Part shown: piece after piece, positions 7,398 through 64,000 of the stretch
Layout of the letters: each line of letters starts with the position of its first letter
How positions within the stretch are numbered: the first letter of the stretch is position 1
Origin: Eukaryota sp. GEM-RC1
Taxonomy: Eukaryota
Length of the DNA stretch: 64,000 bases
Reading direction: 5' to 3'
NCBI GenBank assembly: GCA_040285855.1
Contig: JAUFOQ010000002.1
Coordinates: 1,364,001-1,428,000 of the forward strand
Made by a program: the position numbers and the translations under genes
Notes under the pieces: model-generated
Told to the model about the DNA's origin: nothing
Database searches by the model: none
The model's input: only the letters and a program-made list of their open reading frames with translations

Positions 7398-8025
7398 CAT
7401 AGTTGCGAATCACAAATTTTTGTGATGGGATTTTGTGATGTGATTGTTGTGACATGTAATTTTTTAGATTTTACACTACCGTGTGTTTAATACTATCATA
7501 AACAATGTTAAGTAGAAGAATTCGGTTCACCAACTTGTGAGACAGAAGTAACTTTGACATCGGAACTGAAGAAGCAATTAACGTCTGTTTTTCTTTTTTA
7601 AAAATAAACGTCTTATTATTCCCATCTATCTTAGACTCCACGGAAGAACATAACTAGCTTACATCCGCAAACTTCCTTGAGGAACTTCCTTTGGAATACG
7701 ATTATAGAGTTACGAAATCTAATAGCCCATTTGGAAAGTCATCAAAGTGAAGCACTCTGATTTTATTAGTCGAAGGTCGGATTTGAAATGTTGTCGGACC
7801 TTACTACAAAAAACCGCAAAGTTCTTCCACACTAAGCGTAAAAACAAGACACTTACTTCAGTTGTTACACTTTATTAACTGTCCAGAATAAATTTTGTTC
7901 CATCATTGTGATGTTGTGATGTTAAATCATAAATATCACAAAAATATTGCTTATGATGTGATGTTGTGATGTGATTGTTGTGACTCACAATATCACAAGG
8001 TCAAATTTTGTGATTCGCAACTATG
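7398..8025. mobile_element. hAT-type MITE family A, copy 1 (628 bp)
   Basis: TIR CATAGTTGCGAATCACAAA. Perfect 8-bp TSD GAATAAAG (7390-7397, 8026-8033). TGTGAT subterminal repeats. Second copy at 16557. Confidence 0.92.
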
Positions 8026-8211
8026 GAATAAAGTAGTATGTTTTAATAAGTGATAAGTAATCAAAATTACGAAAACTAAAAAACATCGAATAACAACAGC
8101 GTCTTGTTTCAATCTGGTACGTGTGTGAAAATATTTAGCACTACAGAATTGTTTTTTTCTTTGCACGAAGTGGAGGCTCAGTATTTGTGTTGTACGATTA
8201 TATTTGCTCAA

Positions 8212-9038
8212 ATGCTGAACATCCCTGAGTTTGCTGGCTTTGAATTTCAACGACTTTCTGGTGGATGTATAAATGATGTGTATAGAGTTTGGTCCTCCAC
8301 CAAAAGTTATGTATTAAAGGTCGGTAGTCGGTCTTCTACCATGTTTGAAACAGAAGCAGCAGGACTCAAGCTGTTATCTCCCCATCTGTCTGTTCCTAAT
8401 GTCATCAAGTACGGTGAATTCGAGAATCAATCGTTTATCATTCTTCAGGATTTGGGTAATGGCCACCGAAAAGGAAACAAAAATGCAATGTCTTCCTTAG
8501 GTACAGAACTAGCCAAATTACACTTGAATGCCAAAGCTCAAGACTTTGGGTTAGATCACGATAATTGGATCGGGAGTCTCCCTCAAAGGAATACTTGGTG
8601 TACCTCTTGGCCTGTCTTTTTTGAGAATTATCGCATTAGACCATTGGTTCAGTCCGCGTTTGAAGCAAATAAGTTGACTAGTAGCGATCTGGAACTTTTG
8701 ACAGTCTCTATGAGCTTCTTCCGGAATTGTTTCCCTATGAAACTCCATCACTGCTTCACGGTGATTTATGGGCTGGGAATGTTCATGACTCCTATTTTAT
8801 AGACCCAGCTGTGTATTTCGGATTTAGAGAAATGGATATTGCTATGACACAGCTCTTTGGTGGCTTTAATAGAAGTTTCTATGAAGCCTACTCAGATGTT
8901 TTTCCCTTAACTGAAGGTTGGGAAGACCGAGTTGATCTGTGTAACTTGTACCCCAACCTAGTTCATCTTGAATTGTTTGGTAAAAGTTATTTATCGTCCG
9001 TTAGGAATACAGTGAAGCATTACATAAACAAATTTTAA
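8212..9038 (+). CDS. Fructosamine/ketosamine-3-kinase family protein (one frameshift near 8696)
   Basis: Motifs SGGCIN, FETEAAGL, FGLDHDNWIGSLPQRN, PSLLHGDLWAGN, DPAVYFGFREMDIAM. Adding one T to the T4 run near 8696 joins the two ORFs (ELFDSLYELLPELFPYET). Confidence 0.9.
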
Positions 9039-9269
9039 CGTTGTGTTAAGGTAATTTAACCTTTAAGTTTTAAAGTCAAAAGGTAATGTTGAATGAATAT
9101 TCATTAGAATTGCACTATCTTCACATTCATGTTGACAAACAGAAGTTTATTGTAGACATTGTCTAGAACTACTATTTAAGTTCTTGTACCTGAATTCATG
9201 TACGTGTTCATGTATAAGAAAAACACAATAACAATATACTAATGTAGTAATATATATTATAAGAGTTTC

Positions 9270-9619
9270 CCCTACTTGTTTGCTTAAATGTTCAATTTGT
9301 GTGTGCGATAACCGTTCTACAGCACATTGGTAGCTGCAAGAAATTTTTGCAATGTCAATCGGTTTTACATAATGCTATTCGTGATGTCACTTATGACATG
9401 TTCAAATCCAACAATTACAGTTGTAAAATTGAACCTCTTTTGAAACATAGAAGTAGCAATGAAGATATTATTGCTCCTTTCCTGAATTCATCTCAAGTTG
9501 TTGATTTTACTACAATTGATCCGTTTACAAAAGTCTACATGGACTCAATTTTGAACGATTGTAGAGGACATTTTGAAAAGACTGAGTATCGTAATCTTTC
9601 TAATTATGCTGATACTTTG
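9270..9619 (+). pseudogene. Decayed 3' remnant of an RLE-type non-LTR retrotransposon
   Basis: Cys/His knuckle remnant, then HNAIRD...KIEPLL...VVDFTT. Paralogous to the remnants at 11, 27 and 54 kb. Confidence 0.65.
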
Positions 9620-10511
9620 GAAAAAACGGGGTTTATGATCAATCAGTGAAATCAATGCTTTTGCAGAAATTATTAACTAACAGCAGTGATCGCCAAATAT
9701 AAACCCGTAAATACTATTAGTAACAGAATACTGAAAAGTTACAGACTGTAACTTTTCAGACAACTCCGTAAATAATTTCCGCACTTTACGGAACGATATA
9801 CAATGTACTAGTATTTTTCGGCAACAATATTATTTACCGCAAATAATTGCAATACGAAACCGTATTTCCTTTTGGATTTCCACATATCTACAACAAGAAT
9901 TGTTATCAAACTGTTCGTTTGTTTGGAGTGAAAACCATAGTAAAAAATCATATTTATTTCTAACACCACAATCCTCTTATTTTTGTTTTGTCAAGAATTA
10001 GAACATCATATTCAACAATCATTTTCTGATGTTCTTCAGATTCAAAACTTTGATAGTCAACGAAATGATCAGTTTTGGCATGATAAAGAAGATCGGTGTA
10101 TTCCTTACCCTTCTTAATCCAAGCGAAAATAATGGGTTGACAGTACTTACACTTGTTGCAGTCAGAAGAGATTAGAGAATGGTACCTGGGAGAATGTAGT
10201 GGGTCTTCCAGCTTCGTGAAGAAGTTTTTGATACGCATCGTCCTGGCATTGTCTACGGAAAAATCACATTTTTTACGAAAGTGTTTTACCGTAAATAATT
10301 TCCGTATTTTACGAAAAACTCCGTTTTACGGAAAGCAATAGTTGGTACCGTGCCGTATTTATGACTATTCCATAAATACACTATTGTTATTTGACGGTTT
10401 GACGATCACTGACTAAAAGAAACTAACTAAAGTATTTAAACTATCATCCTTCTGTCCATCACCAAACAACTTACATAAGTTGAAACAATATATCTGGGCA
10501 TTGAACGAATC
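9620..10511 (-). repeat. 157-bp-family TIR-less repeat, split by the hAT insertion 9684-10411
   Basis: 9620-9683 plus 10420-10511 match the reverse complement of 17077-17233. Confidence 0.8.
9684..10411 (-). mobile_element. Non-autonomous hAT element family B, copy 1, with BED-finger remnant
   Basis: TIRs CAGTGATCGCCAAA / TTTGACGATCACTG. TSD ACTAACAG/ACTAAAAG (7/8 match). Minus-strand CKYC...H...H remnant. CCGTA subterminal repeats. Confidence 0.85.
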
Positions 10512-16404: not shown

Positions 16405-16556
16405 GTTTTTTGTTTAATGTTTTTGGAAGTAAGTTGTAGTCACCCGTATTCTTGTCGAAGTTAATAAATTGTGGTTAAATCTAGATGTTTGTTGGAATGG
16501 AAATGGGTAAATGAACTGAAATTTAGTTGAATTTTGGAGAAGTTTTAATATAAAAC

Positions 16557-17370
16557 CATTGTTACGAATCACAAAATTTGACTTTGTGATTTTGTGAGTC
16601 ACAACAATCACATCACAAGCAATATTTTTGTGATAATTGTGATTTAACATCACAATGATTGAACAAAATCTATTCTGGAAAGTTAGTGAAATGTAACAGC
16701 TGAAGTAAGCGTCATTGGTCTTGTTCTTACGCTTAATTTGGAAGAACTTTCGTTTTTATATTAGTACGGTCCGATAATATTCCAAATCCGACCTTTGAGT
16801 AATAAAATCAAAATGCTTCACTTTTTTGACTTTCCAGATGGGCTATCAGATTTCGTAACTCTCCATTCGTATCCCAAAGGCAGTTCATCTAGGAAGTTTG
16901 CGGATGTGAGCTAGTTATGTTCTTCCATGGAGTCTAAGATTGATGGGGAATATTAAGACATATATTTGTGTAAAAAAACAGATATACATTAATTGCTTCT
17001 TCAGTTCCTATGTTAAATTTAATTCTATCTCATAAGTTGGTGACTTGAAGTCTTGTACTTAACATTGTTTATTATAGAGTCGTTCAATGCACAGATATTT
17101 TAAATCAATTTTAGGTAAATTGTTCGGTGATGGACAGAAGGATCATAGTGTAGATACTTTAGTTAGCGTCTGTTAGTTATTAACTTCTGCAAATGCATTT
17201 ATTTCACTGATTGATCATAAACCCCGTTTTTTCTAGTAATAAACACAAGGTAATGCAAAATCTAAAAAGTTATGCACAACAGAATCACAAATTTTTTCCT
17301 TTGTGATATTGGATATCACAACAATCAAATCACGAAATAACATCACGAAAATTTGTGATTCGCAACTGCG
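16557..17370. mobile_element. hAT-type MITE family A, copy 2 (inverted; carries a 157-bp insertion)
   Basis: Diverged TIRs cattgttacgaatcacaaa / tttgtgattcgcaactgcg. Perfect TSD TATAAAAC (16549-16556, 17371-17378). Collinear with the reverse complement of 7398-8025. Confidence 0.9.
17077..17233 (+). mobile_element. 157-bp TIR-less insertion element flanked by TA
   Basis: Absent from MITE copy 1 at the equivalent site. TA at 17075-76 and 17234-35. Other copies at 9620-10511 and partially at about 22368-22408. Confidence 0.8.
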
Positions 17371-22853: not shown

Positions 22854-24909
22854 GGGTTTGGGTACAAAAATACCCCTATGACATCAACTTAGTACATTTC
22901 TACCCCTCTTCTAAATTTGGGGTTTTTTCCTACCCCTGTTCGTTTTTCACGTCTTTTCCTTTCGATACTCTTTTATATTTCTACATAAATACAATACTAA
23001 GGGAACATTGCTACTTCAACATATTCAGAATCACTTTCTCCAGATAACTCATCATCTTCTGTTGAGGTGTATTCACTGTCATTCCAGTCGTGGTCACCAT
23101 CACTAGTATCAACACCGTCATAGAAGGACACGTTTTGGAAGTCACCTGCTTTTAAAGCATTAGAAGTCAATCTAAGTGCGGGTTTGACCTGTTTCTTCCC
23201 TTGTTGTTCACCTGCTACAAACCTTTTGTTTTTGGTCTTCCTCTTCCAACCACTACTTTTGGTGGTGTAATGTCAGATTCTTCCAACTCCATTGTTCCAC
23301 ACACAGAAAGCATTCCTTCGTTGTACGTTCTTTTGTAGTTCTCTACTAGGTAGTAACTATCTACTGATGACACGATGTTTTGACCTAAGGCAAACGAAGC
23401 AGCAAATCCATGGCTGCATGGATATCCATTAGCTTGTCATAGATTACAATCACACGTTCTAGCACGAACGTTGACAATAAATGCCTTACAACCAGCAAGA
23501 ACTTGCACCAGTACATCTTTTCCCTTTTTGACAACAACAGTAGTCAGGCTTTTAGCCTGGTATAATTCTGGCTTAATTCGATTCCACACATTGTCACAGA
23601 TGATGTTATTCATATCATTTGCTTCAATCAATCGTTTCTCATACCACACAGACAATTTGTCAACAATAGCATTAATCATACGCACTACAGGTAACCCTCT
23701 GATACCGAGGAACCATGCATTCAAACTTTCAATCGCATTCGATGTTAAATGTCCGTATCTTAATCCAGGAAAGTGTACCGTGGTCCAATGTTCTAGCCCA
23801 GCCAATACAAGTTTATCATATGCTTTTGTTGAATTCATACGAATTTCAGCAAGTGCTGCATTTAAATCTTCAACATTTTGAGCTCTAGCAGCTTTCCAAA
23901 CAAGTGATGTAAAGCGAGCTCCCACGTTCTTAGTTAAATGTCGAAGACAGTAAGAATGATTTGATTCAGGATACACCTGACGCACAGCCTCCAATAACCC
24001 CTTTTCTCTGTCACTAATGAAAGTTGACACATTATTTCCAAAAGAATCTTTAAATTGATGTAAAAACCAGCGCCAATTATCCAAGTTTTCACCAGAAACA
24101 ACAGCAAATCCCAAAGGGAACAGTTGACCTTGAGCATCAACCGTGGTAGAAGTCAACATCACTTGCCTGTATTTGTTGTGCAAATGAGTACCATCGATTT
24201 GCACCAGAGGTCTGCAATATTCAAAGCCTCTGATACAACTGTGTAAAGCGACAAACAGTCGATGAAATTGCCCATCATTTAGCTCCAATTTTACATTAGT
24301 TCCAGGATTAAGGTCCAAAAGTTTGTTTAAGTAAGCAGGAAGTTTGCGGAAGTTGTCTTCATGAGTGCCGAATAGTTCGTCTTTGCAGAGTTGCCGTACT
24401 CTTTTTACAGTATGACTAGGGAGGTTGGTGTTGCACACCTGCTTTAAGTCAATCGTTAAAGAACTAGCACTGATGTTCGGGTTGTGAAGTATTTTTGTAC
24501 GTATCAATGTTAAGGAAGCAAGATATTCTGTAGAAGCAGGACGTTTGATCGTAGTTGTAATAGAGTGGTTCTGGCATGTATGGGCTATCAATTTTCTTAT
24601 GATATAAGGAGTTCCGTCACTACTTTTTTGGGGACGAGACGCATAACACATAAAGGCACATGTTTGATTTTTGCACCTGGCTTTGATCTGTTTATGTTCA
24701 GATTTCACCAACTTATAAGGAGCGTTTTCTTGTAAGCAATGAATACGTATAAGTTCTTTTATTTGTGCTGCATTTGCGGAAGTGTTTACTTCAAAAGGAG
24801 GTAACTGATAGGGATCCATTTGGTGAAGGGGTAGGTTTGTTTTAAGGGAAATTTGTGGGGGTAGAAATGTACTTATATTTTGTCAGAGGGGTATACATGT
24901 ACTTTTCCC
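22854..24909 (-). mobile_element. Mutator-like element (MULE), 2056 bp
   Basis: Imperfect TIRs of about 50 bp starting GGG (shared TACCCCT...TGACA...AGTACATTTCTACCCC). Perfect 9-bp TSD TTTTGTAAA (22845-22853, 24910-24918). Internal transposase. Confidence 0.93.
22997..24819 (-). pseudogene. MuDR/MULE DDE transposase with SWIM finger (premature TGA at 23437)
   Basis: CRPLVQIDGTHL, ISDREKGL, HSYCLRH, TSNAIESLN. The SWIM finger CDCNL*QANGYPCSH continues past the stop to a GRGRPK motif and an acidic tail. Confidence 0.88.
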
Positions 24910-29251: not shown

Positions 29252-29917
29252 TGGGGGAAGATTTACAAAACTACAAGAGTTGGAGGTGAAGTAAAAGAAT
29301 TTGAACGAGATAACACGTCATAAGACTGTTGCACTGTTGACCTATGTTGGGAGTCATCTCAACACGTGTTGAATGGGGTTTTCGAAGAGGTTCAACACGG
29401 GTTGGACATGTCATTCTTCTATGCCACTTCAATGAATTTGGGTAAATTTCTACTGTTCTTGATAAAACTATATTGAATAAAGGTAAAAATTTCAAGTTTA
29501 CTCCAAAGTTTACTTAAATGTATGGATTATTGATGAGCTCTTCATGTTATCAGTTCTGGAATCGGTGAAAATCAGTTCCAATTTATCAATTTGGTTCGGG
29601 TGTAGCATGAGTGAAAAAGAGATGTGTTTTTCCATTGGTTGAGCTTAAAATGAATTATTTAATATTTTCCAACAGTGTGTTGAATCGAACATAGCTGCTA
29701 TTAATATCAGTAGTGTAGTAGCTGTTTGGTAACTGAATTCGATTCCTAAACGCTGAGTTTATTGAACTAAGTGCTGCCTAATAGAGCGCCCCTAAAAGCA
29801 AAGGAAAAGGTTGTACTAAAACACAGTACAATTCTTAATTATGCAGGGTATATTAGTTCGAATAAAACTGAACATTATTATCTACAATCACCAGACTGGT
29901 AGTCTTGAACTACAAGC

Positions 29918-30594
29918 CAGTGATCTTCAAACCATAAAATGAAAATAGCGTATTTATTCAATTACCATAAATACGGTACGGTACCTACTAGTATTGTTGC
30001 TTTTCGTGAAATAGTGTTTCCCGTAAAATGGGGAAATTATTTATGGAAAATACTTCCGATAAAATACTAGTGTGTATTTTTCCTTAAACAATGCCAAGAC
30101 GATACGTATCAAAAAGTTCTTCACGAAGCTGGAAGACCCTATCATAATGTAATCTCATCTGACTGTTACAAGTGTAAGTACTGTCAGCCCAGTTTTTTCG
30201 CTTGGATTAAGAAGGGTAAGGGACACACCGATCTTCTTTATCGCGCCAAAACTGACTATTTGGACGACTATCAACGTTTTGAATCTGCAAAACCTCAAGA
30301 AAACGTAGTTCACTATACTATTGCAAATTCTTTCTAGATGATTGTGTTGCTAGAATTATGTATGATTGTGACTATGGTTCTCGCAAACAAGTGCGAACAT
30401 TATGATACCAATTCTAGTTCTATACACATGTAAAAACAAGAGTCATTTTGCGGTGAAATACGTTTCCGTATTGCAATATCTTACGGAAAATAATATTCTT
30501 GCCGTAAAATATAGCGTTTTGTAAAATACAGAAATTATACATGGAGTCGTCTGAAAAGTTGCCGTACTTATGTTTTATATTTTGACAAACACTG
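29918..30594 (+). mobile_element. Non-autonomous hAT element family B, copy 2
   Basis: Termini CAGTGATCTTCAAA / TTTGACAAACACTG. Internal sequence matches the reverse complement of 9684-10411, including the CKYC BED remnant. TSD degenerate. Confidence 0.78.
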
Positions 30595-40971: not shown

Positions 40972-43125
40972 CTAATTAATCACAGGAAAAAGTGGTTTTT
41001 TTGTGAATAATTTTGCATACCTCGGATTATCAAACCTAGTTTCCGATATTTTCAAACAACTTAAATCATGAGACAAAGGTGAAGCCTTCTTCATTTTAAA
41101 CTCATCATTTCCCTTAAATCCCTTCAACTGCTTCTTTCTTCCAGGAAGTACTGAGAAGTAGAAACATTCGTCTTTGTGTATCTTAACCCCAGCCAAAGAG
41201 ATTCTTCCGTTAGCTGGAGGATGTTTCATTGGACATTTGATTGAAGATCCTTTAGGATTAATGTTATTTAAATTAACAAAACAATATTCAGTACCTGTCG
41301 AAGTGAAAGAATTCGAGGATTTTAGAAGACCTGATTTTAAAGTCGACATTTCAGTCTCCATCATTTTTGATTGACGGTGTTTCATCTTACTCTTACTAGA
41401 CTTCTTCCCCTTATTCTTTTCAATGATTTCGGAATCACTAGAAATTTGAAAACAATAAACAACAGTCGTAGTATAAACCAAGTAATTTTGAAAAAATGCT
41501 TCAAAATCTTCAGTTTAGTCAACACCCATAGTGTAATCAACAGAGTAATAACAAAAGAAGTATCAAAAAGTCCTAGAACCGGGCCTACGCACACATCAAA
41601 CTGCTCCATGATACACTTAAACTCAAGAAACTTACAAGTACAGTCTGATAGCAGCCAAGGATTGTCACCTTCATTGGACTCATTCCAGTCTTTAGTTTCA
41701 GTATGCCCTTCTTGTAATACCTTGAATTGTTTAAAATCCAAGACCTCGCCTGAATGACTCTGAATGAGCTCTAAATCACACGTGACCAAAACGTCATCAT
41801 CAGTTTGAGTAATAGAGATCTGAGTTGAAGCAAAAGCATGCCCATCTCCTGGAACGAACATATCACCAAAAGGGGGAAACTACAACGTCAGCAGTCACGT
41901 CATCTGACCAGCACTTTAAGGAAGGAGACACGATAGCACCACGTGAACCATCTGCATAAGCATAGAACTTAATATCCACTGGAATTTGACCACCCATTGG
42001 AGAGTCAGTTAGGACAGAAAGGTTTCTAATGAGAATAGGGGTGTTGCTATGGATTGTGCGGAGTAAGGAGTCAGCTGGAAACTCTAACTTGACTAAAACT
42101 CCAAAAAAGGAGTCAATTGAATAGATTAATAGCCGATCATTGGAGGTAATCACGTCACGAACGTTACCAAGAGAAGAGGCGAAATGCCAAGGAACTTTAC
42201 CATCTTGTTGAAGCTTTTGAGCTTTTTTTAACAGTGTTTTCAATGGAATTAATCAATGACGGATCAATTGGACCAGAGCAGTGTTTAACAGAATTACTTT
42301 GAAAGGATTGAAACACTTTGAGTGGAGAAAGACTATCAGTTTCTGATTGAGAAAGGATCAATCTATTTGATTGAACTGAAGTTCTGATGTATCGGCGACC
42401 AGTGATTGAGGGAAAGTGATCAGAAAACCCCCCAAGACCCCCCCTCAAGAGAAACTAGCAGACTCTTATCAGAAGTCGTTTGAATTCTTGAGCTTGGAGT
42501 TACACGAGCAGTAAACTCTTGATTATTATAAGTAACAGAACATTCAACATGAAAGTCAATCTCCCCCCTTCCCAATGGTATAAGTAGGAACAGAAGGTTC
42601 TAAAGGACGTTGGCAGTGAGCTGAGTGCCAAGAACCGGCGAATAAGGAGCAAGCTATTCGGTTTCTGGAAGACCAAATGTCAGATATGCGACAAGTACAG
42701 CAGAAACCAGAGGAGTATGGGATGGGATCGTCTTTACTGTCAAGGGACCAGCCACAGGTTGCAGATCTACCATCAGGGGAGATTGGTGCATGACATGAAT
42801 CAAGGGCAGAGACGCCAACGATCTTTTCTTGGTAGCTGAAAGGAAGATCTTCGACATAGTGAAGAGGAAAAAGAACTTCAGGAGTGGATCGGATACAATA
42901 GATGGATACAGGGGATGAAAGGTCCACTGAATCGATGGAAGAGACATCGAATTCCAGTTCAGGTGAATCGGACTGAGCGAGATTGAGTAGAATCACTGCT
43001 TTCTTTTCACATGAAATATCAACGCCATCAGAGGTCTCACATGACACAATTGTAGAGCTGGAAAGAACCGAACACGAAGAAAAAGAGAAGATGATGGATG
43101 TAAGAAAGAGTACATGGATGAGCAT
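40972..43125 (-). CDS. HAP2: HAP2/GCS1 gamete fusogen (several frameshifts)
   Basis: Signal peptide, C..CEKKAVI, TCGW...IPYSSGFCCTC...RNRIAC...SAHCQR, a pre-TM Cys cluster CTC...C...C, a TM helix and a basic tail. The pieces are collinear on the minus strand, with breaks at or near homopolymers. Confidence 0.88.
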
Positions 43126-43154
43126 TTTGCCTGCGTCACAGTTGTTCCTCATCA

Positions 43155-44063
43155 ATGGCAAACTATTTGGATGTTAACGCCTTCCTTCAAACAGTGTTAT
43201 CACCCGATACTATCACCAAACATGTACAACTTTTGGATTCTGCGAGCTCATTTCCTTCTCATGGTCAGTCATGTGCCGCACTATTAAAAAAGCTAGAATC
43301 CATTGTAACAACCAGTTATCGTGACCCATCAGTATTCCCTCTTTTGGTAAGTATCTCCAGAGCCCTCACACTACTTGCTGATCAGAAGACATTCGAGGCA
43401 TCCAAAACCATTGAGATTCTTACAATGCTCATTAAGAAGTCAAACCCCTCTCAACAGTTGTACTATCTAAAAACAACACTAGAGATCCTGTTATCAAAAG
43501 CCCAGTCATCACACCTGTTAGATAAGAGAATTCTGCAACCAATCATCAACTGCCTAATAGAATCACAGGAAGTAAACGATCACACTGCTAGAACTCTTTC
43601 CGTAATCATTGATCACTTTCTATCACCCACGTTTCTAACCACTCAATCACAATCAGTTCTGAACCTAATCAGTTTCCTCTTAAACAAGTTCCCGCGACCT
43701 TCACCAAATGAACCCAATCTAGACCAGTATACCTCTGTAGTACTGGGATCAGTCTCACTAAGTAAGTTGGCTAAGCTAATGTTTGAACTAAATGAAGAAG
43801 AGGAAGAGATATTAAGTGATCCTCGTGTTAGTTGTTCAGGAATTGCTCAAGAGTCGTTGATGTATTTGTTGAAGATTGTTCCATCACCATGTTTAGGGCT
43901 ATTTACTGATAGTTTAGTGCAACATTTGAAAAGTGTGTCTCAAAGTGTGGATGTAGTACAAAAAGGAAAGATTGTTGAGCAAATATTTGAAATATTGGAC
44001 AAAATTAAGACATTTATGAGCGTTTCAGTTTATCAAAAGGCTTGGGAAAATGCTTTTCTGTAA
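43155..44063 (+). CDS. Hypothetical alpha-helical protein
   Basis: ATG-started 302-aa Leu-rich ORF. Confidence 0.65.
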   Translation: MANYLDVNAFLQTVLSPDTITKHVQLLDSASSFPSHGQSCAALLKKLESIVTTSYRDPSVFPLLVSISRALTLLADQKTFEASKTIEILTMLIKKSNPSQQLYYLKTTLEILLSKAQSSHLLDKRILQPIINCLIESQEVNDHTARTLSVIIDHFLSPTFLTTQSQSVLNLISFLLNKFPRPSPNEPNLDQYTSVVLGSVSLSKLAKLMFELNEEEEEILSDPRVSCSGIAQESLMYLLKIVPSPCLGLFTDSLVQHLKSVSQSVDVVQKGKIVEQIFEILDKIKTFMSVSVYQKAWENAFL

Positions 44064-54981: not shown

Positions 54982-55565
54982 TAGGAATGATAAATAATTC
55001 AGTTCAAGTGTGTGTGTGAACTGGATCTGAACTGATTGAACCGATCCTTTTGTGGATGATGTTTGAATTAATACAAAAAACAACAATTATCCTAGAACAT
55101 GATTTTATGATACGGTATTAGAGAGGTACAACAATCAAAAATCGTCTTGAGAAAGTATATGTATATCGTGTTCTTCCACACTGTACTTCTTTCTCAAAAT
55201 CTTCCTTAAGCGCAACCCAATAGTGTTGCTTCTTCTGAACGTTTACTTTCACTTGCTGGACTTATTGCCAATAAGAAGAGGGCCAAATTGAGGGAAGAGT
55301 CTGTTCACTTTCTTGCATGTTTGGACTCATGGCTTAAGTCAAACCTAGATTAGGAGAGAACTACATTTTCAAGGTGATACATTAATGTTTTCATTCAATT
55401 TAGTGAAAAAATTGAGTTGTCTTTATTTTAAAAAAAGGATTTATGTGCGGCGAAAAACACACAACAAGAAAACAGTCTTTATTTGATTATATTTATTAAA
55501 CTGAACCACGGTTCAGAGCCGGTTCATACTATTAGTGAACTGAACTGAACCATTTGACATCCCTA
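54982..55565 (+). mobile_element. Degenerate hAT derivative
   Basis: Right end TTTGACATCCCTA, diverged left end TAGGAATGATAAAT, TGAAC subterminal repeats. Dimerisation-domain remnant SSERLLSLAG...CLDSW near 55220-55335. TSD not conserved. Confidence 0.7.
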
Positions 55566-55584
55566 ACATGTACATAACATGTAG

Positions 55585-55741
55585 TAATTTGTTTTCATTT
55601 TGATGACTGTGGTTCTCAACTCAAATGGATACTAGTATTCCCAAAGTACACAACTTTGTTAATTTTCATTTTGATTAGAGTATCGAAACCACAGACACTC
55701 AGTGAGCTAAGCCCACTTCGCTGCGTACTGTTAAGAGTACA
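55585..55741 (-). ncRNA. Candidate Fanzor omegaRNA
   Basis: Directly 3' of the Fanzor stop. Hairpins at 55725-55740 and 55701-55717. A long-range stem 55687-55694/55607-55614 encloses a hairpin at 55642-55658. Confidence 0.55.
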
Positions 55742-58680
55742 CTAAAGTTCTTTACGAGAGACCTTCGTCTGCTGGACTGACTTTACGCTTCTTCTTTTAG
55801 GCGAACTCATTTCTTTTGGTGGATTCTTGCATGACCTTTTGTTATGACCTTCTTGGCCACAATTTCCACATGTATTCTTCTTTCCTGTTGAAGTTTTGTT
55901 CTTTCCGGTCACAGTCTTCTTCTTTCCTGTTGAAGTTTTGTTCTTTCCTGTTGAAGTTTTCTCCTTCTTGGTCGCAGTCTTCTTCTTCTTCTGGTCTCTC
56001 GCCAAAGTATCCTTACCACTCTCGAGATCTGTTGTTTGAGTTTTAGATCTCTCGAGAGCGGATGGCCTACCTTGACCATTGATCGTTGCTTCAATGATGG
56101 AATAGATATTAATGGCAGAATTTAGGTCTCTATTCCAATAAGTACCACACTCAGCATCTGAGCACCTTACCAGTCCCCAGGGTGTGGATTTAGCTTCTTC
56201 TTCCAATGACTTCTGCTTCACCTCCCACTCTGCTTCCAAAAATCCCGTTGGTTTACAGGATCTTGTTTGTTTTTGAGCAAAATTTCTCTTCTTAACTTTT
56301 TTCTTCTTCCTTCTTAGCTGTCTCTTACCTTTTGGACCAAGGACCTTTAGTTCTGAAACATTTTCACATTCTACGAAAGTTGATTTTTCCTTAGCACATT
56401 TGGAACAACACTTGCTTGTTCTGTATTCATCAACAAGAAATATTTGGTATCCATATCTTCTTAACATTTTACGGATTTCCACTCCTCTAACAGTTGAGGT
56501 TTTGCCCTTTCTTGTTTTACCTTTTGAGCTCCAATCCCCATAGCCAATGATGACGTCTTCTGGAGGTCCATATGTTAAATTGAAGCGTTCCAGCATGTTT
56601 TTCTCCGATTGTTGGTTATTTGAATAAATTTGGAATTTCCTCTTTCTAAACCAGTCATCTTCGTAAAAAGAACTCAAATATACGTTATATCGTTCAGCTT
56701 CTTTAATATATGTTCCAAATGTGTCACTGAAACACGACTTTCTTTCCCCATTTGATACAGCATTGGAAAATTGGTTAACGACATCTCTTCCTGTTACAAG
56801 AATATTATCAGGACGAAGAACCAAAAAATCTTTAAGTTGTCTTTCAGTGACAGTTTCATCTGGTGATTCGATAGAAAATTCTTTCAGTTTCTTATTTTCA
56901 GATTTACGATATTTTTTAGATTTTCTATCGTAAGCTCTTTCTCCAGCTGTGTAGTTAAACTTCTTCCATTTGTGCTTAGCCTTTTTCTTTGATTTTACAT
57001 CATTATTCGAATTTTTCCAATCTTGTAATTGTTTCTTTCTTTTCTTAATTCCTCCTCTCTTCTTACTTCTGATTTCTGAGGGTAATCGTTTTTGAGTGGA
57101 TTATTTTCTGAAATATCTTCTTCTTTAAGCTCATCGACTGTCTTTTCAGAAACACAATACATTAAATCATATTCATTAGGATCAATACCTACAATTCTTT
57201 TTTTCCTTCAATTGTAATTCTTGAATATTCTCATTTGATAAAGAGTGAATGTATCTTTCCGAAGTTCCGAGAGATTTAGCAGTAAAATCTTTGAAAGTAT
57301 TTCCATCTTCATCAACCAAATCTTTCCTCATTAAAACCAAACAACAAGAAATTCCATCTGTCAGAATTGAAGAATATCTAAAGACAAATGATTTTGTTGG
57401 TGCCACAGCTTTGTCAGTAAGGACCTGACCAAAAACCTTTTTCCTTATTTCATCTGCTTTTTGCCACGACGTATATGGACAAATCTTTGATTAATCCAAT
57501 CAGTTTCCAAACGAATATGCTGAGGAATCAATGTCTTCGTCATTGGAAAAGGATTGTTTACACTGATTGGTTTTCCATCAACCAAACACAAAGATTGTAT
57601 TGTTCGGTTGATGTATAGAGCATGAGAAATTAACTGCATCGGCTTTACTTTCTGTAAATAGTAAATGTTCTTTTTGAAAACATTGGAAACAAAGAAAATT
57701 TCAAATACGCAAAAACCTCAGTGTTAATTCTTCAAGTGGATAAGGGAAGATCTTGTGATTATTAATGGGAATGTCATCAAAATTTCCATTGATAATCGAA
57801 TCTCTGACTGAATTCAATTTCGAAATCAATTCTTTCTTATCAACTTGATCACTTATTTGTTCAAGTCTTACTTTCTTTCTTGTTACCAGATTAAAGAATC
57901 TGAATACATAATCATGAAAATTTTTGACCATATTGTTGGCATAATTTGTAGAAATTTGTTTGGCAGTGTAATGAAATATGGGAGACATCGACGTAGAATC
58001 AGGAAAAGAAATTTGATTTGTTCCAATTTCAGCAGACAACTGTTGTAGCAGTGGAGAAAAGTTGTTCAAGTAGTGAAATGCAATTTTTTCTTTTTCATTC
58101 ATTTCTAGTCTTGAAGATTTTTGGAAATCGTCAAGCACTGTTTGAGCCTCTGCTCTTGATATTTCTAAATCTGACTGACTTGAAGAACCAGTTGATTTCT
58201 TCACATACATCCGTCTCAATACTTGTTTGATTGAGGTTTGGCTAAGAAATTTTGTAAAATCTGGTAAGACCACTGAAAAATTTTTGAATGTAAATGAATC
58301 AAAATCATGTTCGGACATTAACTCCATTTCACGAAGTTCTTTCTCAAACAAATCATTAAGTCTCGTTCATTTGATTCCAAACGTTCACGTGTTTCAGACT
58401 CAGAAATTTGGAGATTTTCGTACATTAAGTCTTGTTCGTTTGATACTGACAAATCAGAAGGTTGTAGTGTAAACGAATCAAAATCGTGTTCGTACATTAA
58501 GTCTCGTTCATTTGATTCCAAACGTTGTCTTTCAAACTCACAAATAAGGAGATGTTTCAAAAATTAGAACCCCTTACTGTTGCTCTTTGATTGCGGATAA
58601 CACAGTCTTTAATTAAGACAATATTATTCTGATCTTTAATAACTTTCTCCAGTCCCTTTTTCACCACTTTAATTGGATGG
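55742..58680 (-). CDS. Fanzor1 (TnpB-derived RNA-guided RuvC nuclease) domain of the polyprotein
   Basis: Reconstructed motifs NIYYLQK, NPFP...IPQHIRLET, ILTDGISC, RuvC-I IVGIDP (about 57181), FNYT, FRKRKF, IGYGDWS, RuvC-II LVDEYRTSKCC, zinc ligands CSKC...CSDAEC, RuvC-III WNRDLNSAINI. Confidence 0.9.
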
Positions 58681-58769
58681 CGCTCTAGAACATGTTGAGT
58701 TTCTTCATCAAAGAAATATTCATGTAATTCAGTTAGACAGTTAATTCGTTGAAGTAAATCATCAACCAG

Positions 58770-59590
58770 AGTAATTACTTTTACGTTATCAGTCCACAAT
58801 TTGAAGGTTTGTTTGTTGTGTGCGAGTAGGTTAAACTCTTTCTCTATTTCCTTGTTAACGGTTATGCCTGGTACTTTTCGAAATTCTGTGAAGTATGTAG
58901 TTAATTCTAATGACGACAAAATTAAATTCGGTACGTGTTTCCGAAACAATTTTGAACAAACATTTTCCAAACTTCTACCACCTTTGAAGACATAAGTAGA
59001 CTTTGTAACATTTGCCAAGTCTAGAGAAACAAAAGGTCCAAAATTGCAAAGCTTACACCATCTATGAAACCAGTTGGGTACATAGGGTCTGTATGGATTA
59101 TCTAAATGAAAATTGGTCTGAATCTTGAACATTTCACACCGTTTAATCAAAAAAGGAAACAAAAGTTCATCAGTGTTATAACCAATCAACAATCTGGGTT
59201 TTGTTTGGCATAAAACTTGGATAAGTTCCCCAATCATGGCTTCTTCTGAAGCACAAACAATTATTTCGACATTTTCAAATGTATTGTTTATGTTCTTTTA
59301 CTAAAAATAACAGTTGAAGTGAAATTAGCATAGATAAATTTGAGACTGATAAAGATTATTTTGTCTTCTTTATCCAAAGGATTTGCAAACAGTTCTGCTC
59401 TCGATGCTTCAACTTCTTCTTTGATTTTAGGTATATCAGCATCCTCTGGTTCCTCAGAGTCATCTTCAATATCATCAGAGTCGACACTTTTTTTAGGCAA
59501 TACTGTTTTAGTTGATTTGAGAATTCTTGGATTGAGTCGTTTTGCATCAGTAATCATGGTTTTAAAATCAATTAAACAAAATGTTGGGAT
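58770..59590 (-). CDS. Degenerate family-B DNA polymerase 3'-5' exonuclease domain
   Basis: CLIDFKT, DKIIFIS, SEEAMIGELIQVLCQTKPRLLIGYNTDELLFPFLIKRC, VSLDL...RSLENVCSKLF follow PolB exonuclease motif order. Acidic catalytic residues are partly lost. Confidence 0.7.
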
Positions 59591-59854
59591 TTCTTCTGTT
59601 TCTGTTAATTCTGATAGATTCGATTTCTTAAATGGAGGAGTAATTCCACTTTTTTGAGGTTTATGAAGTTCTTTTGTAGATGATGAGACTAAGGTGTCTA
59701 CAGAAACAACTTCTTTTACAGGTTCGGTGTGTTGTAGACTTTCTTCCATGATAAGTATGTCTTTTTGCATTGACGGTGGATATAAGGAAATAGATGCTTG
59801 TAATTTTGGTGGTAGCTCTGTTAACCTAATAGACGATTCTTTGGACATTCGCTG

Positions 59855-59914
59855 TTCTTCTTCTTCTTCTTCTTCTTCTTCTTCTTCTTCTTCTTCTTCT
59901 TCTTCTTCTTCTTC
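59855..59914. repeat. (TTC)20 microsatellite encoding a poly-Glu linker
   Basis: Perfect trinucleotide run, read as E20 on the minus strand. Confidence 0.95.
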
Positions 59915-59929
59915 TGGTGGATTAAGTGA

Positions 59930-61190
59930 TTCAAGATACGAGTAGATTTCGTTTCGAACAGCAAGAGCATCAATTTCCATATTAAGCAACAACGATTCAG
60001 CATGAGACAGGCTTGGAAGTTCACCTAGCTTGTTTAAAAATTGATGAATATACTCTATAACATAGATTCCACAATCATTGGGCGTCTGCTTTCGCGTAAC
60101 AGGAAAAACAATTGGTTCGAATGCAAGAATGCTAAGAACTGATACTACTATAGAAAGGACATTTGTCAGCAGAGAAGTCTTGATAATATTTCCATCCTGT
60201 GCAAAATCACGAGTATCGTAATATGGGTCAATAAACATCCAGTTCCTGATTTGACAATCAATGATAATCAAACCCCAATGAATACCAGATTGTGCTGGTT
60301 CTGTAAATCCATCATTCAACGGAGCAATAAGAAATCTGTTGCCTCGATTTAAACATTCGAGAGTTTTATCAAGTAGAAAAGATGACAGATTGTGACTAGT
60401 GATGTAATACTTCATCACTGAAGGGGGGATAAAAGAAGTCCAATCGTAACCATAAATTTCAAATAATTTCTTACAATATAGTCGTATAACTTCATCATCG
60501 ACCCAGTTATTCGGTTCCACAGAGGTCAAAGTCTCATCAGAAACAACTTTTTTGGGTTTAGTCTCTGATCGACTCAAACGGTTCTGAATCTCTTGTCGAA
60601 CTTCTACAGTGTTTATGTTGGCTATTTCAAGCAATTTGGATTCCAAGTACAGCCCAGGGATTGTTCGTAATTGTGACAAAAGTTCAATAAATTTCTCTAT
60701 ATATTTTAGGACATAAATTCCACCGTTGTTTAAAGTTTGCTTGGTTGCAACAGGAATTGGTTTGAGATTATAAGTTCCAAAAGTTGTTTGAACTATATTG
60801 AATATCTGTTTCAAAGACGAAGATTCTATTGAACAATCTGAATCACACTTTGGATCAATAAATATACCTTCCAAACGCACACAATCGACAATAACTAGCC
60901 CCCAGTGAGTTCCATCATTGGCCGGTTCTGTCATGGAATCATTTAGTGGGATTATGAGATAGTTGTATCCTTTTGCCTTAGTGACATTGACTTTGTCATT
61001 GATAAAAACATCTAACAATAAATCAGGAAAAGATTGTGTCCCTTTAAAAGAGCAGGTTGAATAAAAAGATCATCGAAATCAACACTAGATGCTTGTAGTT
61101 CGAAATATGTTTGAAATATGGATCTAGAAAACTCAACAAAGACTTCATCATCTACCAAATGATCAGGTTGCAAACAATCTAAAGCTTCTT
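59930..61190 (-). CDS. Two tandem Ulp1/SENP8-like (C48) cysteine protease domains
   Basis: Each has VDDEV...FIxP...PLND...GxHWGL...FIDP...KQT.N..GIYV. Copy 2 has QTPNDCG; copy 1 has QTLNNGG. Confidence 0.85.
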
Positions 61191-61197
61191 GAGAAAC

Positions 61198-61239
61198 TGG
61201 CCCTGGATTGGATTCCACGTCACCATCAATGGTGAGATC
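61198..61239 (-). other. 2A (StopGo) ribosome-skipping peptide
   Basis: DLTIDGDVESNPG|P matches the D(V/I)ExNPGP consensus. Confidence 0.88.
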
Positions 61240-61420
61240 TTCTTTGAATGTGGGACGGGAGGAGAAAACTGTACGTAATATGAGACACAAAGCAGAAATA
61301 GATGAAGAAACAACACAAAGGATCATCTGAGGAATATTACGAGACGAAGTCGAGGGTATGATGGAAAGCACATGAACACAATTCACATGGGCTGTTTCAC
61401 TAGCGGAAACGAAAATAATT

Positions 61421-61710
61421 CTCCAACATCTCATTATACTACCTTGTTCTTGAGGAGCGTGTGAGAGTGAAGTAGTAAGGCGGCAGCATGCGGAAGAGTA
61501 ACTCCAACATCTCATTATACTACCTTGTTCTTGAGGAGCGTGTGAGAGTGAAGTAGTAAGGCGGCAGCATGCGGAAGAGTAACTCCAACATCTCATTATA
61601 CTACCTTGTTCTTGAGGAGCGTGTGAGAGTGAAGTAGTAAGGCGGCAGCATGCGGAAGAGTAACTCCAACATCTCATTATACTACCTTATTCTTGAGGAG
61701 CGTGTGAGAG
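61421..61710. repeat. 81-bp tandem array (3 full units plus a 47-bp partial)
   Basis: Units start at 61421, 61502, 61583 and 61664. They are essentially identical, with one substitution in the last. Confidence 0.97.
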
Positions 61711-61954
61711 AATTGATGTCAACATTGAAAGTAAATGATTGTTTGACAAAGATTTCTTCCATCTATAGTAGGATATCTTACAAGTCAGTCACATTTCATA
61801 TAATTCCAAACGTAAGAGCTACTAGCTATCTCCTACTTACTAGCTACTAGCTATCCACCCATCCCTCCTGACGACTAAGAACTTATGTCCACTTCAGATT
61901 TTCTGTTTCATACAAGTGTCTCATATAGATTCAGGGTTACTCTAGTGTTGACAA

Positions 61955-62556
61955 TAGTGTTGCACGAGACGTGTAATTTACTGGCCGAGACGCGTCTCGG
62001 AGACGTGCGTCTCCTGAGACGTTTCCGAGACGCGTTTTTTGGTGTTTACATCTTTTTACTTTTCACACAACGTCTCTCTCCTCTTTTCTTTCATTTTTAT
62101 GACTGAACCAGGCATCAACTTAAGAGATTTTGTTACAGTTATTTCAAGAATGTCTTATGAGAGAAGCTATCGACGATATAGTGGAAGAAATGGAAGAAGC
62201 AGAAGACATTGTTGTTATTGAAGAACAAGACATTGACCTAGCCGTTAGTGAAAACGGAAGTGGTGGTGAACAAATGGTATTTGACCCTCTTCTTGAAGGT
62301 CTTGAAATGTAATTCTAAATTTATTTCATCCAAAGGTGCTCATCCATCGATTTGTTAGTTTTTAATTCAGTTTTTGATGAGTTTCTGAATAAATCTATTT
62401 GTTTTGACTTATAATGATGACATTATTACGTTTGTTAAAGCAAGTATCAATGTTAGAAGACGGAGACGTGGAGACGTCTCTGAGACGTAATGTTGTAGAG
62501 ACGGGAGACGGAGACGCGGACGTCTCTTGAGACAAGAGACGTCTCGTGCAACACTA
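61955..62556. mobile_element. hAT-type MITE (602 bp)
   Basis: Perfect 18-bp TIR TAGTGTTGCACGAGACGT. Perfect TSD GTTGACAA (61947-61954, 62557-62564). GAGACG subterminal repeats. Confidence 0.93.
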
Positions 62557-62953
62557 GTTGACAATTAATCTACATAAATCTCTCTGCATAAAACTTCATC
62601 TCTCATAAGGTGTAAAAGTAATAACATGTATATTATCTTTTAAAAGCAAACTAGTATGCCTATGTAATTTGTTTGTTGATGTTTTCTATAGTATGTTTTA
62701 AAAGTATATGTGATAAGTTATTTTATATTGTAATTCAACGTATCTATATTCAGATTAAAGCAAACAGAAATTATAAATTGATGACAAATGATTTATTCCT
62801 ACTGCTGAACATTATTGTAGTGATGTCCTTGTGGAATTGTTTCATGTTTTGAAAGAGTATTTGAAAAATGATGAAAAGACTGGTATGTGTGTTTTATTTG
62901 AATTATATTTAATTTTGAAAAGATTGGAAAATATAGGTAATTTTGATAGTTTC

Positions 62954-63172
62954 ATCTTGTATCACACATCTTGTAAAACATATCTTGTAAAACATATCTT
63001 GTATTACAAATGTTGTATTACACATCTTGTAAAACACATCTTGTAAAACACATCTTGTATTACAAATGTTGTATTACACATCTTGTATTACACATCTTGT
63101 ATTACAAATGTTGTATTACAAATGTTGTATTACACATCTTGTATTACAAATGTTGTATTACACATCTTGTGA
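62954..63172. repeat. 14-bp minisatellite (about 15 units)
   Basis: Interleaved variants atcttgtattacac / atcttgtaaaacac / atgttgtattacaa. Confidence 0.9.
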
Positions 63173-63380
63173 CAACTAAAAGACAATAGATAGTGACAAA
63201 AGACTGGCATATATGGCTTAACTTTATGAACAAAAGAAAAACATAATGAATCAAGATTTCCAAGTCGACATATGCTTTCAGCTTGTGACGGTCAGACTGA
63301 GAAGATGAAAGATTATCATAAGAAGGAGAATATGCGCTGTTTATAGAGATCGTACTTTGCGAGACAATGAAGAAAAAAAG

Positions 63381-63800
63381 ATGTATCTTCCCCATCCAGA
63401 GATAGGACCAGAGATTTTGATGAGCCTACCCCAACAATTTTCTGACTTGAAGGCTAAACTGGAACGCAGCCGAAAAGATCTTCTTAACAATGTTCATTCA
63501 TCTTCAGTACCTTCAGAGAAACCCATCAGTTCTTCTTCAAACAATCTTCCCAAACAATCTTTTCTAAATCATATTCCATCTCTGCAGCAGGATTCCTCTA
63601 CGTCTAACTCTACAAGATACCTAATCAAAAAATCTCTTGTTCCCACTTCGGAAAGTGCCCAGGAAATCGGTGATTCGATAACAAAAAGGCGGAAGCAGAA
63701 ACAAGACCAACGTACTCACCAGTCTCAAAAGGATTCCATTCTTGAAGTATATTCTCTAGACCAATATCATCATGTTCACAGCAAAGATGATTCAAAATGA
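63381..63800 (+). CDS. Hypothetical low-complexity ORF
   Basis: Ser-rich ORF of about 140 aa. No motif; may be a fragment. Confidence 0.3.
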   Translation: MYLPHPEIGPEILMSLPQQFSDLKAKLERSRKDLLNNVHSSSVPSEKPISSSSNNLPKQSFLNHIPSLQQDSSTSNSTRYLIKKSLVPTSESAQEIGDSITKRRKQKQDQRTHQSQKDSILEVYSLDQYHHVHSKDDSK

Positions 63801-64000
63801 CAGATATTTGTTCTTCTTGTTCACTTGTTTATATTATCATATATGACTAGGACTATTACGGTACTACAACCAGGACTGGCTCTAACTAAAGTTAGCAGTC
63901 CACATCTGGTTGAAGATCTCCCGGATTCAGTTCCTGGTGTTTTGAAAGAGTTATGCATTGGTCAGATTTGCAATATTCGTAAACAAACCCTGAAGGTTCG

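What the first reader, a model, noticed from the sequence alone, without database searches (positions are those of the whole stretch)
55742..61710. Fanzor nuclease encoded as the C-terminal part of a 2A-Ulp1-Ulp1-exonuclease polyprotein
Seen: minus-strand ORF pieces join into one frame after about nine single-homopolymer fixes (near 61040, 59297, 58559, 58350, 57712, 57672, 57459, 57198, 57089). No nonsense codon had to be invoked. The product after the 2A is about 1,820 aa. The fusions do not depend on the fixes: 2A and the start of protease 1 share ORF 61012-61677; protease 2 and the exonuclease start share 59288-61018; the exonuclease end and the Fanzor N-terminus (HPIKVVKKGLEKVIKD...VIRNQR...F) share 58557-59237. 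Known: Fanzor1 proteins are eukaryotic TnpB-derived RNA-guided nucleases, usually stand-alone ORFs in transposons or large DNA viruses. Inference: this may be an intact, young RNA-guided system with an architecture I do not recognise, where processing by 2A or the protease, or host deSUMOylation/deNEDDylation, is coupled to the nuclease. No transposase or RT is visible, so how it moves is unexplained.
Basis: partly seen in the sequence, partly recalled or inferred. Interest (0 to 1): 0.93.

Follow-up and report, generated by a model that had tools for sequence, protein, structure and literature searches.

The report
Exonuclease-fused Fanzor behind a 2A leader
This is a frameshift-broken copy of a repeated gene family in soda-lake protists that joins a ribosome-skipping motif, up to two ubiquitin-like-protein proteases and a DNA-polymerase-type exonuclease to an RNA-guided Fanzor nuclease; intact relatives likely cut a DNA site vacated by their jumping element and would trim the cut end so that the element is copied back.

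Summary
Nine frame breaks and no in-frame stop separate a 2A motif, two C48 proteases, a PolB-type exonuclease and a Fanzor1 with an intact RuvC triad; three hairpins after the stop look like the guide-RNA scaffold. The architecture is not an artefact: NCBI gene models from Skoliomonas isolates carry 2A-exonuclease-Fanzor (10 of 31 in one isolate) or 2A-protease-exonuclease-Fanzor (2 of those 10) in one chain. A relative folds as Fanzor1 plus a Pol delta-like exonuclease with no linker between them. Corrections: the core is exonuclease-Fanzor; proteases number 0-2, resemble SENP8 and have no diglycine site to cut in their linkers; this copy's exonuclease and first protease lack catalytic residues, whereas exonuclease motifs are kept in relatives only 21-34% identical. 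New: leaders are swapped between bodies at the 2A. The breaks are probably mostly assembly errors (host genes here break alike), but no reads were available. No transposase and no significant terminal repeat was found, so mobility is inferred: a non-autonomous DNA element moved in trans, with restorative homing helped by 3' tail trimming. Not found in the papers searched.

The parts
61421..61710 (-). 81-bp tandem repeat, 3.6 copies, open in the leader frame
   Evidence: in-frame leader repeats of other periods in 6 of the other 20 2A-bearing proteins
61258..61326 (-). Hydrophobic leader from the ATG at 61326 (an upstream ATG at 61677 is also in frame)
   Evidence: sequence; 29 of 34 residues identical to the leader of P0040, whose body differs
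61198..61257 (-). Class A 2A/StopGo motif, predicted split between Gly and Pro at 61201/61200
   Evidence: sequence; motif in 21 of 196 proteins held, all of this family; activity untested
60580..61200 (-). C48 protease 1, SENP8-like, His at 60907 kept, catalytic Cys replaced by Gly at 60724 (predicted inactive); break near 61040
   Evidence: 38% identical to protease 2
59925..60560 (-). C48 protease 2, His 60280, Asp and Cys 60073 present
   Evidence: Pfam; best solved relative SENP8, E 1.8e-4
59580..59924 (-). Acidic/disordered linker: poly-Glu (59855-59915) and a Thr-Pro-Pro-x-Lys-Lys motif near 59641
   Evidence: a similar Ser/Thr-Pro-basic motif within 70 residues of the exonuclease in 11 of 17 proteins checked; reading it as kinase site plus nuclear signal is recalled, untested
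58680..59578 (-). PolB-type (DEDDy) 3'-5' exonuclease domain, catalytic motifs lost in this copy; break near 59297
56050..58673 (-). Fanzor1 (WED-REC-RuvC-TNB): Asp 57183, Glu 56428, Asp 56128, C4 zinc finger; acidic duplication 58354-58526; seven breaks
55745..56049 (-). Lys-rich tail with 21-bp repeats and a CCHC knuckle, absent from the relatives aligned
55676..55742 (-). Predicted guide-RNA scaffold: three hairpins, the first of 7 bp, ending in TA
   Evidence: z -2.57, 4 of 200 shuffles as stable; z -1.77 and -0.99 for two longer windows; 7-bp first stem is the Fanzor1 rule in PMC11423790
55661..55675 (-). Predicted guide (flanking DNA just past the scaffold)
   Evidence: inference from SpuFz1 layout (PMC10432273); right end not shown by a second copy

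Best explanation
The locus is one copy of a multi-family gene that joins a 2A motif, 0-2 SENP8-like proteases, a PolB-type exonuclease and a Fanzor1 nuclease, and it is likely a non-autonomous DNA transposon whose protein would cut the site the element has left and trim the cut end so that the element is copied back. Steps: (1) shown: one ORF with these domains, many dispersed copies and several deep families in Skoliomonas gene models. (2) Predicted: the 2A strips a variable, often repeat-containing leader, so the body always starts at the same Pro whatever is upstream; leaders are seen swapped between bodies at this point. (3) Predicted: the three hairpins after the stop plus the first flanking bases form the guide RNA. 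(4) Inferred from Fanzor1 work: the RNP cuts the empty site 16-21 nt into the right flank. (5) Inferred: this leaves on the left end a 3' tail of right-flank DNA that does not match the filled donor at the junction; the fused 3'-5' exonuclease would remove it so that repair synthesis can run into the element. (6) Inferred: the protease removes NEDD8 or another ubiquitin-like tag from host or element proteins and is optional. (7) Inferred: new sites are reached with a transposase supplied in trans (rolling-circle Helitron2 type or DDE type; not resolved). In the sub-family of this window the exonuclease has lost its catalytic residues and would at most bind ends or be structural, and the nine breaks are likely mostly long-read homopolymer errors.
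For: Fusion: 15 of 31 TZLM3-RCL models run from exonuclease to RuvC, 10 of them with the 2A, 2 of those with a protease; P0028 and P0029 align over 1,633 columns with 0 gaps, which argues against spurious introns; two-protease form P0047 and one-protease forms P0040, P0188, P0098. Exonuclease motifs kept in 23 of 24 (ExoI), 26 of 26 (ExoII), 21 of 22 (ExoIII) sequences that cover them among 36 proteins, across families 21-34% identical. Model of P0003: pLDDT 73.8, pTM 0.71, confident and linker-free across the exonuclease-WED junction; best folds SpuFz1 (target TM 0.70-0.72) then Pol delta. RuvC tree: window plus four fused rows form one starred branch, 98. Leader/body swaps in four pairs. Cut positions of SpuFz1 and restorative homing from papers. 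Nearest stand-alone relatives L009 and L013 sit in 32-34 bp inverted repeats with no transposase-sized ORF. Host genes in the window show 7 similar shifts in 10 genes.
Against: No activity, expression or excision is shown; ends and target duplication are undefined; no partner transposase is identified. The exonuclease is catalytically degenerate in a whole starred clade of five rows that includes this copy and partly so in P0037/P0039, so trimming cannot be essential in all families. No inverted repeat beyond chance within 2.3 kb upstream. All GEM-RC1-named models seen are fragments (longest 997 aa), which fits assembly errors but also decay. Breaks per kb are about four times the host rate (1.6 vs 0.42, Poisson p 7e-4); per run of 5 or more bases the excess is not significant (9/37 vs 7/58, p 0.16; runs of 4 or more p 0.052), and I chose the host genes by eye, four of them because they looked broken. 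Some family-3 models (P0014, P0015, P0018, P0023, P0035) begin without a 2A, and four proteins have His for the 2A Glu. The need to trim a short 3' tail, and the ability of host Pol delta to do it, are recalled, not read here.
Confidence: 0.5

Rival explanations
1. The exonuclease and proteases are passengers or structural add-ons; the Fanzor works as an ordinary Fanzor1 and the exonuclease has another job (for example destroying re-ligatable ends or degrading excised DNA).
For: Catalytic loss in the five-row clade with domain retention; protease number varies and one of each pair is dead in both two-protease forms; Ulp1/OTU domains are common transposon cargo (PMC2836005).
Against: Catalytic motifs are kept across at least four deep families; the domain is predicted to sit directly on WED; no family member without it was seen.
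Confidence: 0.2
2. The element spreads without any transposase: the RNP makes a break, the exonuclease exposes or trims the end, and host repair copies the element into new sites from its right end, which gives variable 5' ends.
For: No transposase in the locus or in any model fetched; no terminal repeat; variable leaders; unexplained Fanzor1 families with constant 3' and variable 5' parts and variable duplications are in print (CRe-1/2/3, MCi-2).
Against: The guide targets only the element's own flank, so new sites need another activity; I could not search a genome for partners; the window itself holds a MULE transposase and MITEs, so transposases are present.
Confidence: 0.12
3. The element is an RNA-copied, LINE-dependent passenger: its 2A leader and 5' tandem repeats come from a non-LTR retrotransposon whose RT moves it.
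For: N-terminal 2A motifs are typical of APE-type non-LTR elements (PMC3708506); 5' modules are exchanged; DnaQ-like exonucleases are known retroelement cargo (PMC6338049).
Against: No RT, APE or poly(A) tail in the locus; a 2026 review finds no retrotransposon that encodes a Fanzor and no benefit for one.
Confidence: 0.1
4. This particular copy is a dead relic and its breaks are real mutations (independent of how the family works).
For: Nine breaks in 5.5 kb, above the host rate per kb; dead exonuclease and first protease; singleton pieces; a MITE inserted just upstream.
Against: 0 in-frame stops in 1,806 codons, eight of nine breaks are one-base shortfalls in runs, host genes such as Pol theta break the same way, RuvC triad and scaffold intact, and the catalytic losses are shared with sister families, so they predate this copy.
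Confidence: 0.25

Closest known systems
Fanzor1 of Spizellomyces punctatus (SpuFz1, Spu-1; PDB 8GKH, 9CEU-9CEZ; PMC10432273), PpFz1, GtFz1 (PMC11423790)
   Same: Fold (target TM about 0.7), rearranged RuvC-II Glu just before the zinc finger, short hairpin scaffold after the stop with a 7-bp first stem, no transposase in the element.
   Different: Those are stand-alone ORFs (Spu-1 about 2.1 kb with 30-nt inverted repeats); here 1,200-1,800 aa with exonuclease, optional proteases and 2A, and no such repeat found.
Stand-alone Fanzor1 of giant viruses and metagenomes (L001, L009, L013; BFVD hits from Yasminevirus, Klosneuvirus and others; PGv-1 type in PMC3627910)
   Same: Nearest sequence and fold relatives of the nuclease part.
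   Different: About 600-900 aa; 0 of 25 loci has an exonuclease hit or a 2A motif.
Fanzor1 families with variable 5' ends: CRe-1/2/3 (Helitron2), MCi-2, DFa-1/2/3 (PMC3627910)
   Same: Non-autonomous, 5' and 3' parts exchanged between families.
   Different: No exonuclease, protease or 2A described; their ends are defined, these are not.
2A-bearing APE-type non-LTR retrotransposons (L1Tc, Ingi, CR1, Crack; PMC3708506)
   Same: Class A motif near the N-terminus of one long ORF.
   Different: Downstream is a nuclease fusion, not APE-RT.
Ulp1-carrying DNA transposons (Ginger1, Mutator; PMC2836005) and SENP8/NEDP1 (PDB 1XT9)
   Same: C48 protease fused to an element protein.
   Different: Fused to Fanzor, not a transposase; N-terminal; sometimes doubled with one dead copy.
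Exonuclease domain of DNA polymerase delta and viral PolB (PDB 3IAY, 6S1M)
   Same: ExoI/II/III motifs and fold.
   Different: No polymerase domain; donor lineage not resolved.

Membership tests
Fanzor1 | RuvC Asp-Glu-Asp with the Glu six residues before a C4 zinc finger | tested here: met
   sequence; rule from PMC13565253
Fanzor1 | WED-REC-RuvC-TNB fold like SpuFz1 | tested here: met
   on relative P0003; the window protein itself was not folded
Fanzor1 | Structured guide RNA at the right end with flank-derived guide | tested here: inconclusive
   three hairpins, z -2.57 for the best window only; no second copy for covariation, no RNA data, no Rfam match
Fanzor1 | RNA-guided, TAM-dependent DNA cleavage | not testable with these tools
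   needs biochemistry
PolB DEDDy 3'-5' exonuclease (relatives) | ExoI DxE, ExoII D, ExoIII YxxxD | tested here: met
   23/24, 26/26, 21/22 among 36 proteins
PolB DEDDy 3'-5' exonuclease (this copy) | ExoI DxE, ExoII D, ExoIII YxxxD | tested here: not met
   only the first Asp remains
C48 protease, SENP8-like (protease 2) | His-Asp-Cys triad | tested here: met
   the loop before the Cys is one residue shorter than in SENP8, so the oxyanion Gln is displaced
C48 protease, SENP8-like (protease 1) | His-Asp-Cys triad | tested here: not met
   Gly at the Cys position
C48 protease, SENP8-like | NEDD8 (or SUMO) specificity | not testable with these tools
   only sequence similarity, E 1.8e-4 to SENP8 against 0.3-0.6 to SENP1/5
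Class A 2A peptide | GD(V/I)ExNPGP near the N-terminus | tested here: met
   motif
Class A 2A peptide | Ribosome skipping (needs upstream context) | not testable with these tools
   motif alone is not sufficient (PMC3708506)
TIR (DDE) transposon of Spu-1/Mariner type | Terminal inverted repeat of 12-34 bp | tested here: not met
   none within 61710-64000; best match at chance level; the left end could lie beyond the window
TIR (DDE) transposon of Spu-1/Mariner type | Target-site duplication | tested here: inconclusive
   TA at 61944 and 55676 with a 7-bp inverted match, expected in 4% of shuffles of 243 nt and 21% of 2.3 kb
Helitron2/HLE2 non-autonomous element | Short asymmetric inverted repeats, terminal hairpins, T-T target | tested here: inconclusive
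   7-9 bp matches at chance level; ends unknown
Non-LTR retrotransposon | RT and endonuclease ORF, A-rich tail | tested here: not met
   no such Pfam hit in 9 ORF pieces; no poly(A) after the hairpins
Endogenous DNA virus / Polinton | Capsid, packaging or polymerase genes beside the ORF | tested here: not met
   flanks are a Pol theta gene, MITEs and unassigned ORFs; only 2.3 kb upstream is visible

The most novel reading that the evidence does not exclude
A eukaryotic homing machine in one chain that needs no transposase: RNA-guided cut, built-in proofreading exonuclease to prepare the end, a deneddylase to steer host repair, and a 2A junction that lets the gene be translated from any upstream frame it lands in or captures.
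Probability: 0.12. Interest if true: 0.93.

Novelty: new variant of a known kind. Interest (0 to 1): 0.72.

Why it matters
It is a natural fusion of an RNA-guided nuclease with an end-processing exonuclease, kept with catalytic residues across deep families, which engineers otherwise build by hand. It makes an open question testable: what Fanzor does after it cuts, since the cut lies 16-21 nt away from the insertion point and active and dead exonuclease families offer a natural comparison. It also puts a virus-style 2A at a junction where 5' modules are exchanged, and uninterrupted relatives are ready to express.

Tried and rejected
No whole genome is held, so copies, ends, empty sites and partners could not be searched. 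Sequencing runs: none was listed; no evidence either way. Search with the two-protease region for longer proteins: 0 of 2,686 candidates, although P0028/P0029 exist, so the search is weak. Exonuclease-WED profile for longer proteins: 1 of 7,984. Metagenome scan with that profile: 0 of 239 stretches. Viral scan with it: 3 loci, exonuclease hits in 825-1,210 aa ORFs without a Fanzor hit. Single-sequence fold of P0003 failed (pLDDT 32). ESM Atlas: no usable hit. Rfam: 3 chance matches. Candidate terminal repeat at 61944/55676: rejected as chance. A possible pairing between the loop of hairpin 3 and the spacer after hairpin 1 was seen by eye and not tested; Fanzor1 RNAs are said to lack the pseudoknot. 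Protease self-processing: 0 of 7 linkers with Gly-Gly. The RuvC tree had one window piece in the wrong frame; one search replaces it. Alignment A1 had a misplaced row and was replaced by A3. Exonuclease tree does not name a donor: 11 element rows need 2 label changes because one long PolB row falls among them. Earlier-finding look-ups by sequence, place and full wording were empty.
Full report
Observation. Read with X at nine breaks, the stretch from the last Pro of the 2A to the stop gives 1,806 residues plus 9 X and no stop. Pfam places a C48 protease, a PolB exonuclease and a TnpB-type zinc finger in three separate pieces, each above cut-off. The host is a gene-dense eukaryote; the nearest relatives of the element are gene models from Skoliomonas isolates, anaerobic soda-lake metamonads (PMC11316075, passages and section 6 read).

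The fusion is real. A search with the last piece for longer proteins gave 4 of 6,981 candidates; their 90% clusters hold 31 models, all named TZLM3-RCL, on several contigs. I scanned 22 of the 31 with Pfam and all 31 for motifs: 15 run from exonuclease to RuvC, 10 of these carry the 2A, and P0028 and P0029 also carry one C48 protease. The three families are 21-34% identical to each other and 90-98% within. A profile of the exonuclease-WED-REC part against 1.84 billion representatives gave 776 hits; of the 150 listed I read 21, Pfam-scanned 32 and looked up sources for 16. Fifteen of those 16 are models from TZLM3-RCL, GEM-RC1 or TZLM1-RC, one is the window's own; the long-span hits scanned outside this set are PolB polymerases. 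These add a two-protease form (P0047), one-protease forms (P0040, P0188, and P0098, whose source was not looked up), a distant protease-free family (P0074, P0193) and a 96% sister across one break (P0042). These are predicted gene models whose DNA I could not see; 0 gaps in 1,633 columns between P0028 and P0029 argues against spurious introns.

Structure and descent. P0021 matches SpuFz1 and GtFz1 in its C-terminal part and Pol delta in its exonuclease. With a 77-row alignment P0003 folds at pLDDT 73.8, pTM 0.71, with the last exonuclease helix running straight into the first WED strand; best solved folds are SpuFz1, PpFz1 and GtFz1, then Pol delta. In a quick RuvC tree of 32 rows the window and four fused rows form a starred branch; the partial, long row P0193 is unplaced. 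None of 25 Fanzor loci from viral and metagenome contigs has an exonuclease hit or a 2A.

What is active. The RuvC triad and zinc finger are intact here and in the relatives that cover them (P0031 has Asn for the Tyr after the Glu). Exonuclease motifs are kept in 23 of 24, 26 of 26 and 21 of 22 sequences that cover them among 36 proteins of the TZLM3-RCL type. They are lost in this copy and in four GEM-RC1 rows that form a starred clade with it, so the loss is old and shared. Protease 2 has its triad and is nearest to SENP8; protease 1 has Gly for Cys. In P0047 the order is reversed: first intact, second dead. No Gly-Gly lies in 7 of 7 protease-exonuclease linkers, so self-cleavage is unsupported.

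The 2A as a junction. The motif occurs in 21 of 196 proteins held, all of this family, 28-239 residues from the predicted start. Leaders and bodies are mosaics: the window shares its leader with P0040 (29/34) but not its body; P0040 and P0188 share a body (135/148) but not a leader (14/30); P0188 and P0047 share a leader (67/78) but not a body; P0009 and P0028 share a leader (79/100) across families; P0028 and P0029 share a body with different leaders. Seven of 21 leaders contain in-frame repeats. Inference: the 2A makes the body independent of what precedes it. Against generality: five family-3 models start without a 2A, four have His for the key Glu, one has Leu for the first Pro, and the motif alone does not guarantee skipping (PMC3708506, passages).

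Guide RNA and ends. Three hairpins follow the stop (55742-55678), the first of 7 bp as in three solved Fanzor1 RNAs; significance is modest and falls with longer windows. No terminal repeat beyond chance exists in the 2.3 kb upstream. A hAT-like MITE with 18-bp repeats and an 8-bp duplication lies at 61955-62556. The ends therefore stay undefined.

Are the breaks real? Eight are one-base shortfalls, one a surplus. Ten recognisable host genes (16.7 kb, chosen by me, shifts judged from reading frames) show seven shifts at base runs, four in Pol theta. The element has more per kb (p 7e-4) but not clearly more per long run (p 0.16). The published Skoliomonas assemblies are nanopore-based with short-read correction, the kind of data in which such errors occur (own knowledge). 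I put about 75% on mostly errors; no reads were listed.

Mechanism. TnpB/Fanzor systems are proposed to restore an element after excision (PMC13565253, sections 5.5, 5.7 and most of 6 read). SpuFz1 cuts the non-target strand after base 16-17 and the target strand after 20-21. Inference: the left broken end then ends in a 3' tail of right-flank DNA that must go before synthesis can enter the element, and a tethered 3'-5' exonuclease fits that job. That PolB proofreading domains trim such tails in phage T4 intron homing and yeast recombination is recalled; two searches gave only listings. The partner transposase is unknown. Variable 5' modules recall Helitron2-linked CRe-1/2/3, MCi-2 and DFa families (PMC3627910, sections 8 and 12 and passages); the nearest stand-alone relatives lie in inverted-repeat elements.

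Novelty. Ten searches listed no paper on a Fanzor fused to an exonuclease, C48 protease or 2A. Word searches in PMC10711439, PMC10530073, PMC10432273 and PMC3627910 found no natural fusion of this kind; three 2A surveys (PMC12338488, PMC12846837, bioRxiv 10.64898/2026.09.24.754024; passages) do not mention Fanzor or TnpB. Supplement searches for up to six NPGP words found two non-2A rows each in PMC10530073 and PMC10432273 and none in PMC3627910; three files were not searched, stored files may be cut, not all variants were tried, and bioRxiv supplements and Repbase were not seen. Also read as passages: PMC10288648, PMC11417382, PMC11423790, PMC6338049, PMC2836005. Unchecked notes of this scan describe fungal FEN1-type Fanzor fusions and 2A motifs in Helitrons; they are leads, not support.

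Verdict. A real, apparently undescribed variant of Fanzor1: exonuclease-fused, 2A-led, with optional SENP8-like proteases. This copy is not the best specimen; uninterrupted relatives with active-looking exonucleases are. Interest 0.72.

Noticed in passing
window 61955-62556: hAT-like MITE with 18-bp terminal inverted repeats and an exact 8-bp target duplication (62564-62557, 61954-61947), just upstream of the element; family label recalled.
   Followed up: partly
window about 55020-55556: Second MITE-like stretch with short internal repeats downstream of the element; no matching target duplication seen.
   Followed up: partly
window 23437-24882: MULE transposase ORF (Pfam E 1e-22) between 62-nt imperfect inverted repeats; shows DDE transposases are present in this genome.
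   Followed up: partly
window 8750, 13060, 31085, 49300, 49845, 50305, 50595 (approximate): One-base frame shifts at base runs in host genes resembling fructosamine kinase, a methyltransferase, SLX1 and Pol theta; only the Pol theta polymerase domain was checked by Pfam, other names recalled.
   Followed up: yes
window 7400-10500, 16550-17370, 22370, 29470-30580: Dispersed MITE-like repeat families; one of them also forms the C-terminus of model P0038, so it has inserted into a sister element.
   Followed up: partly
window 62953-63170 and 63309-63800: 14-bp tandem array (15.6 copies) and a plus-strand ORF with no Pfam match; may or may not belong to the element's left part.
   Followed up: partly
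L009 4483-8837, L010, L013 1643-5203: Stand-alone Fanzor1 in 34-bp and 32-bp inverted repeats without a transposase-sized ORF; L009 also has a GIY-YIG-like ORF (label recalled), like PGv-1.
   Followed up: partly
P0074, P0192, P0193, P0098: 2A variant with His in place of the conserved Glu, in two families that share a repeat-bearing leader but differ in having a protease.
   Followed up: partly
window 42556-43173: Cys-rich minus-strand ORF that looks like the gamete fusogen HAP2/GCS1 (recalled, not tested); would bear on sex in this host.
   Followed up: no
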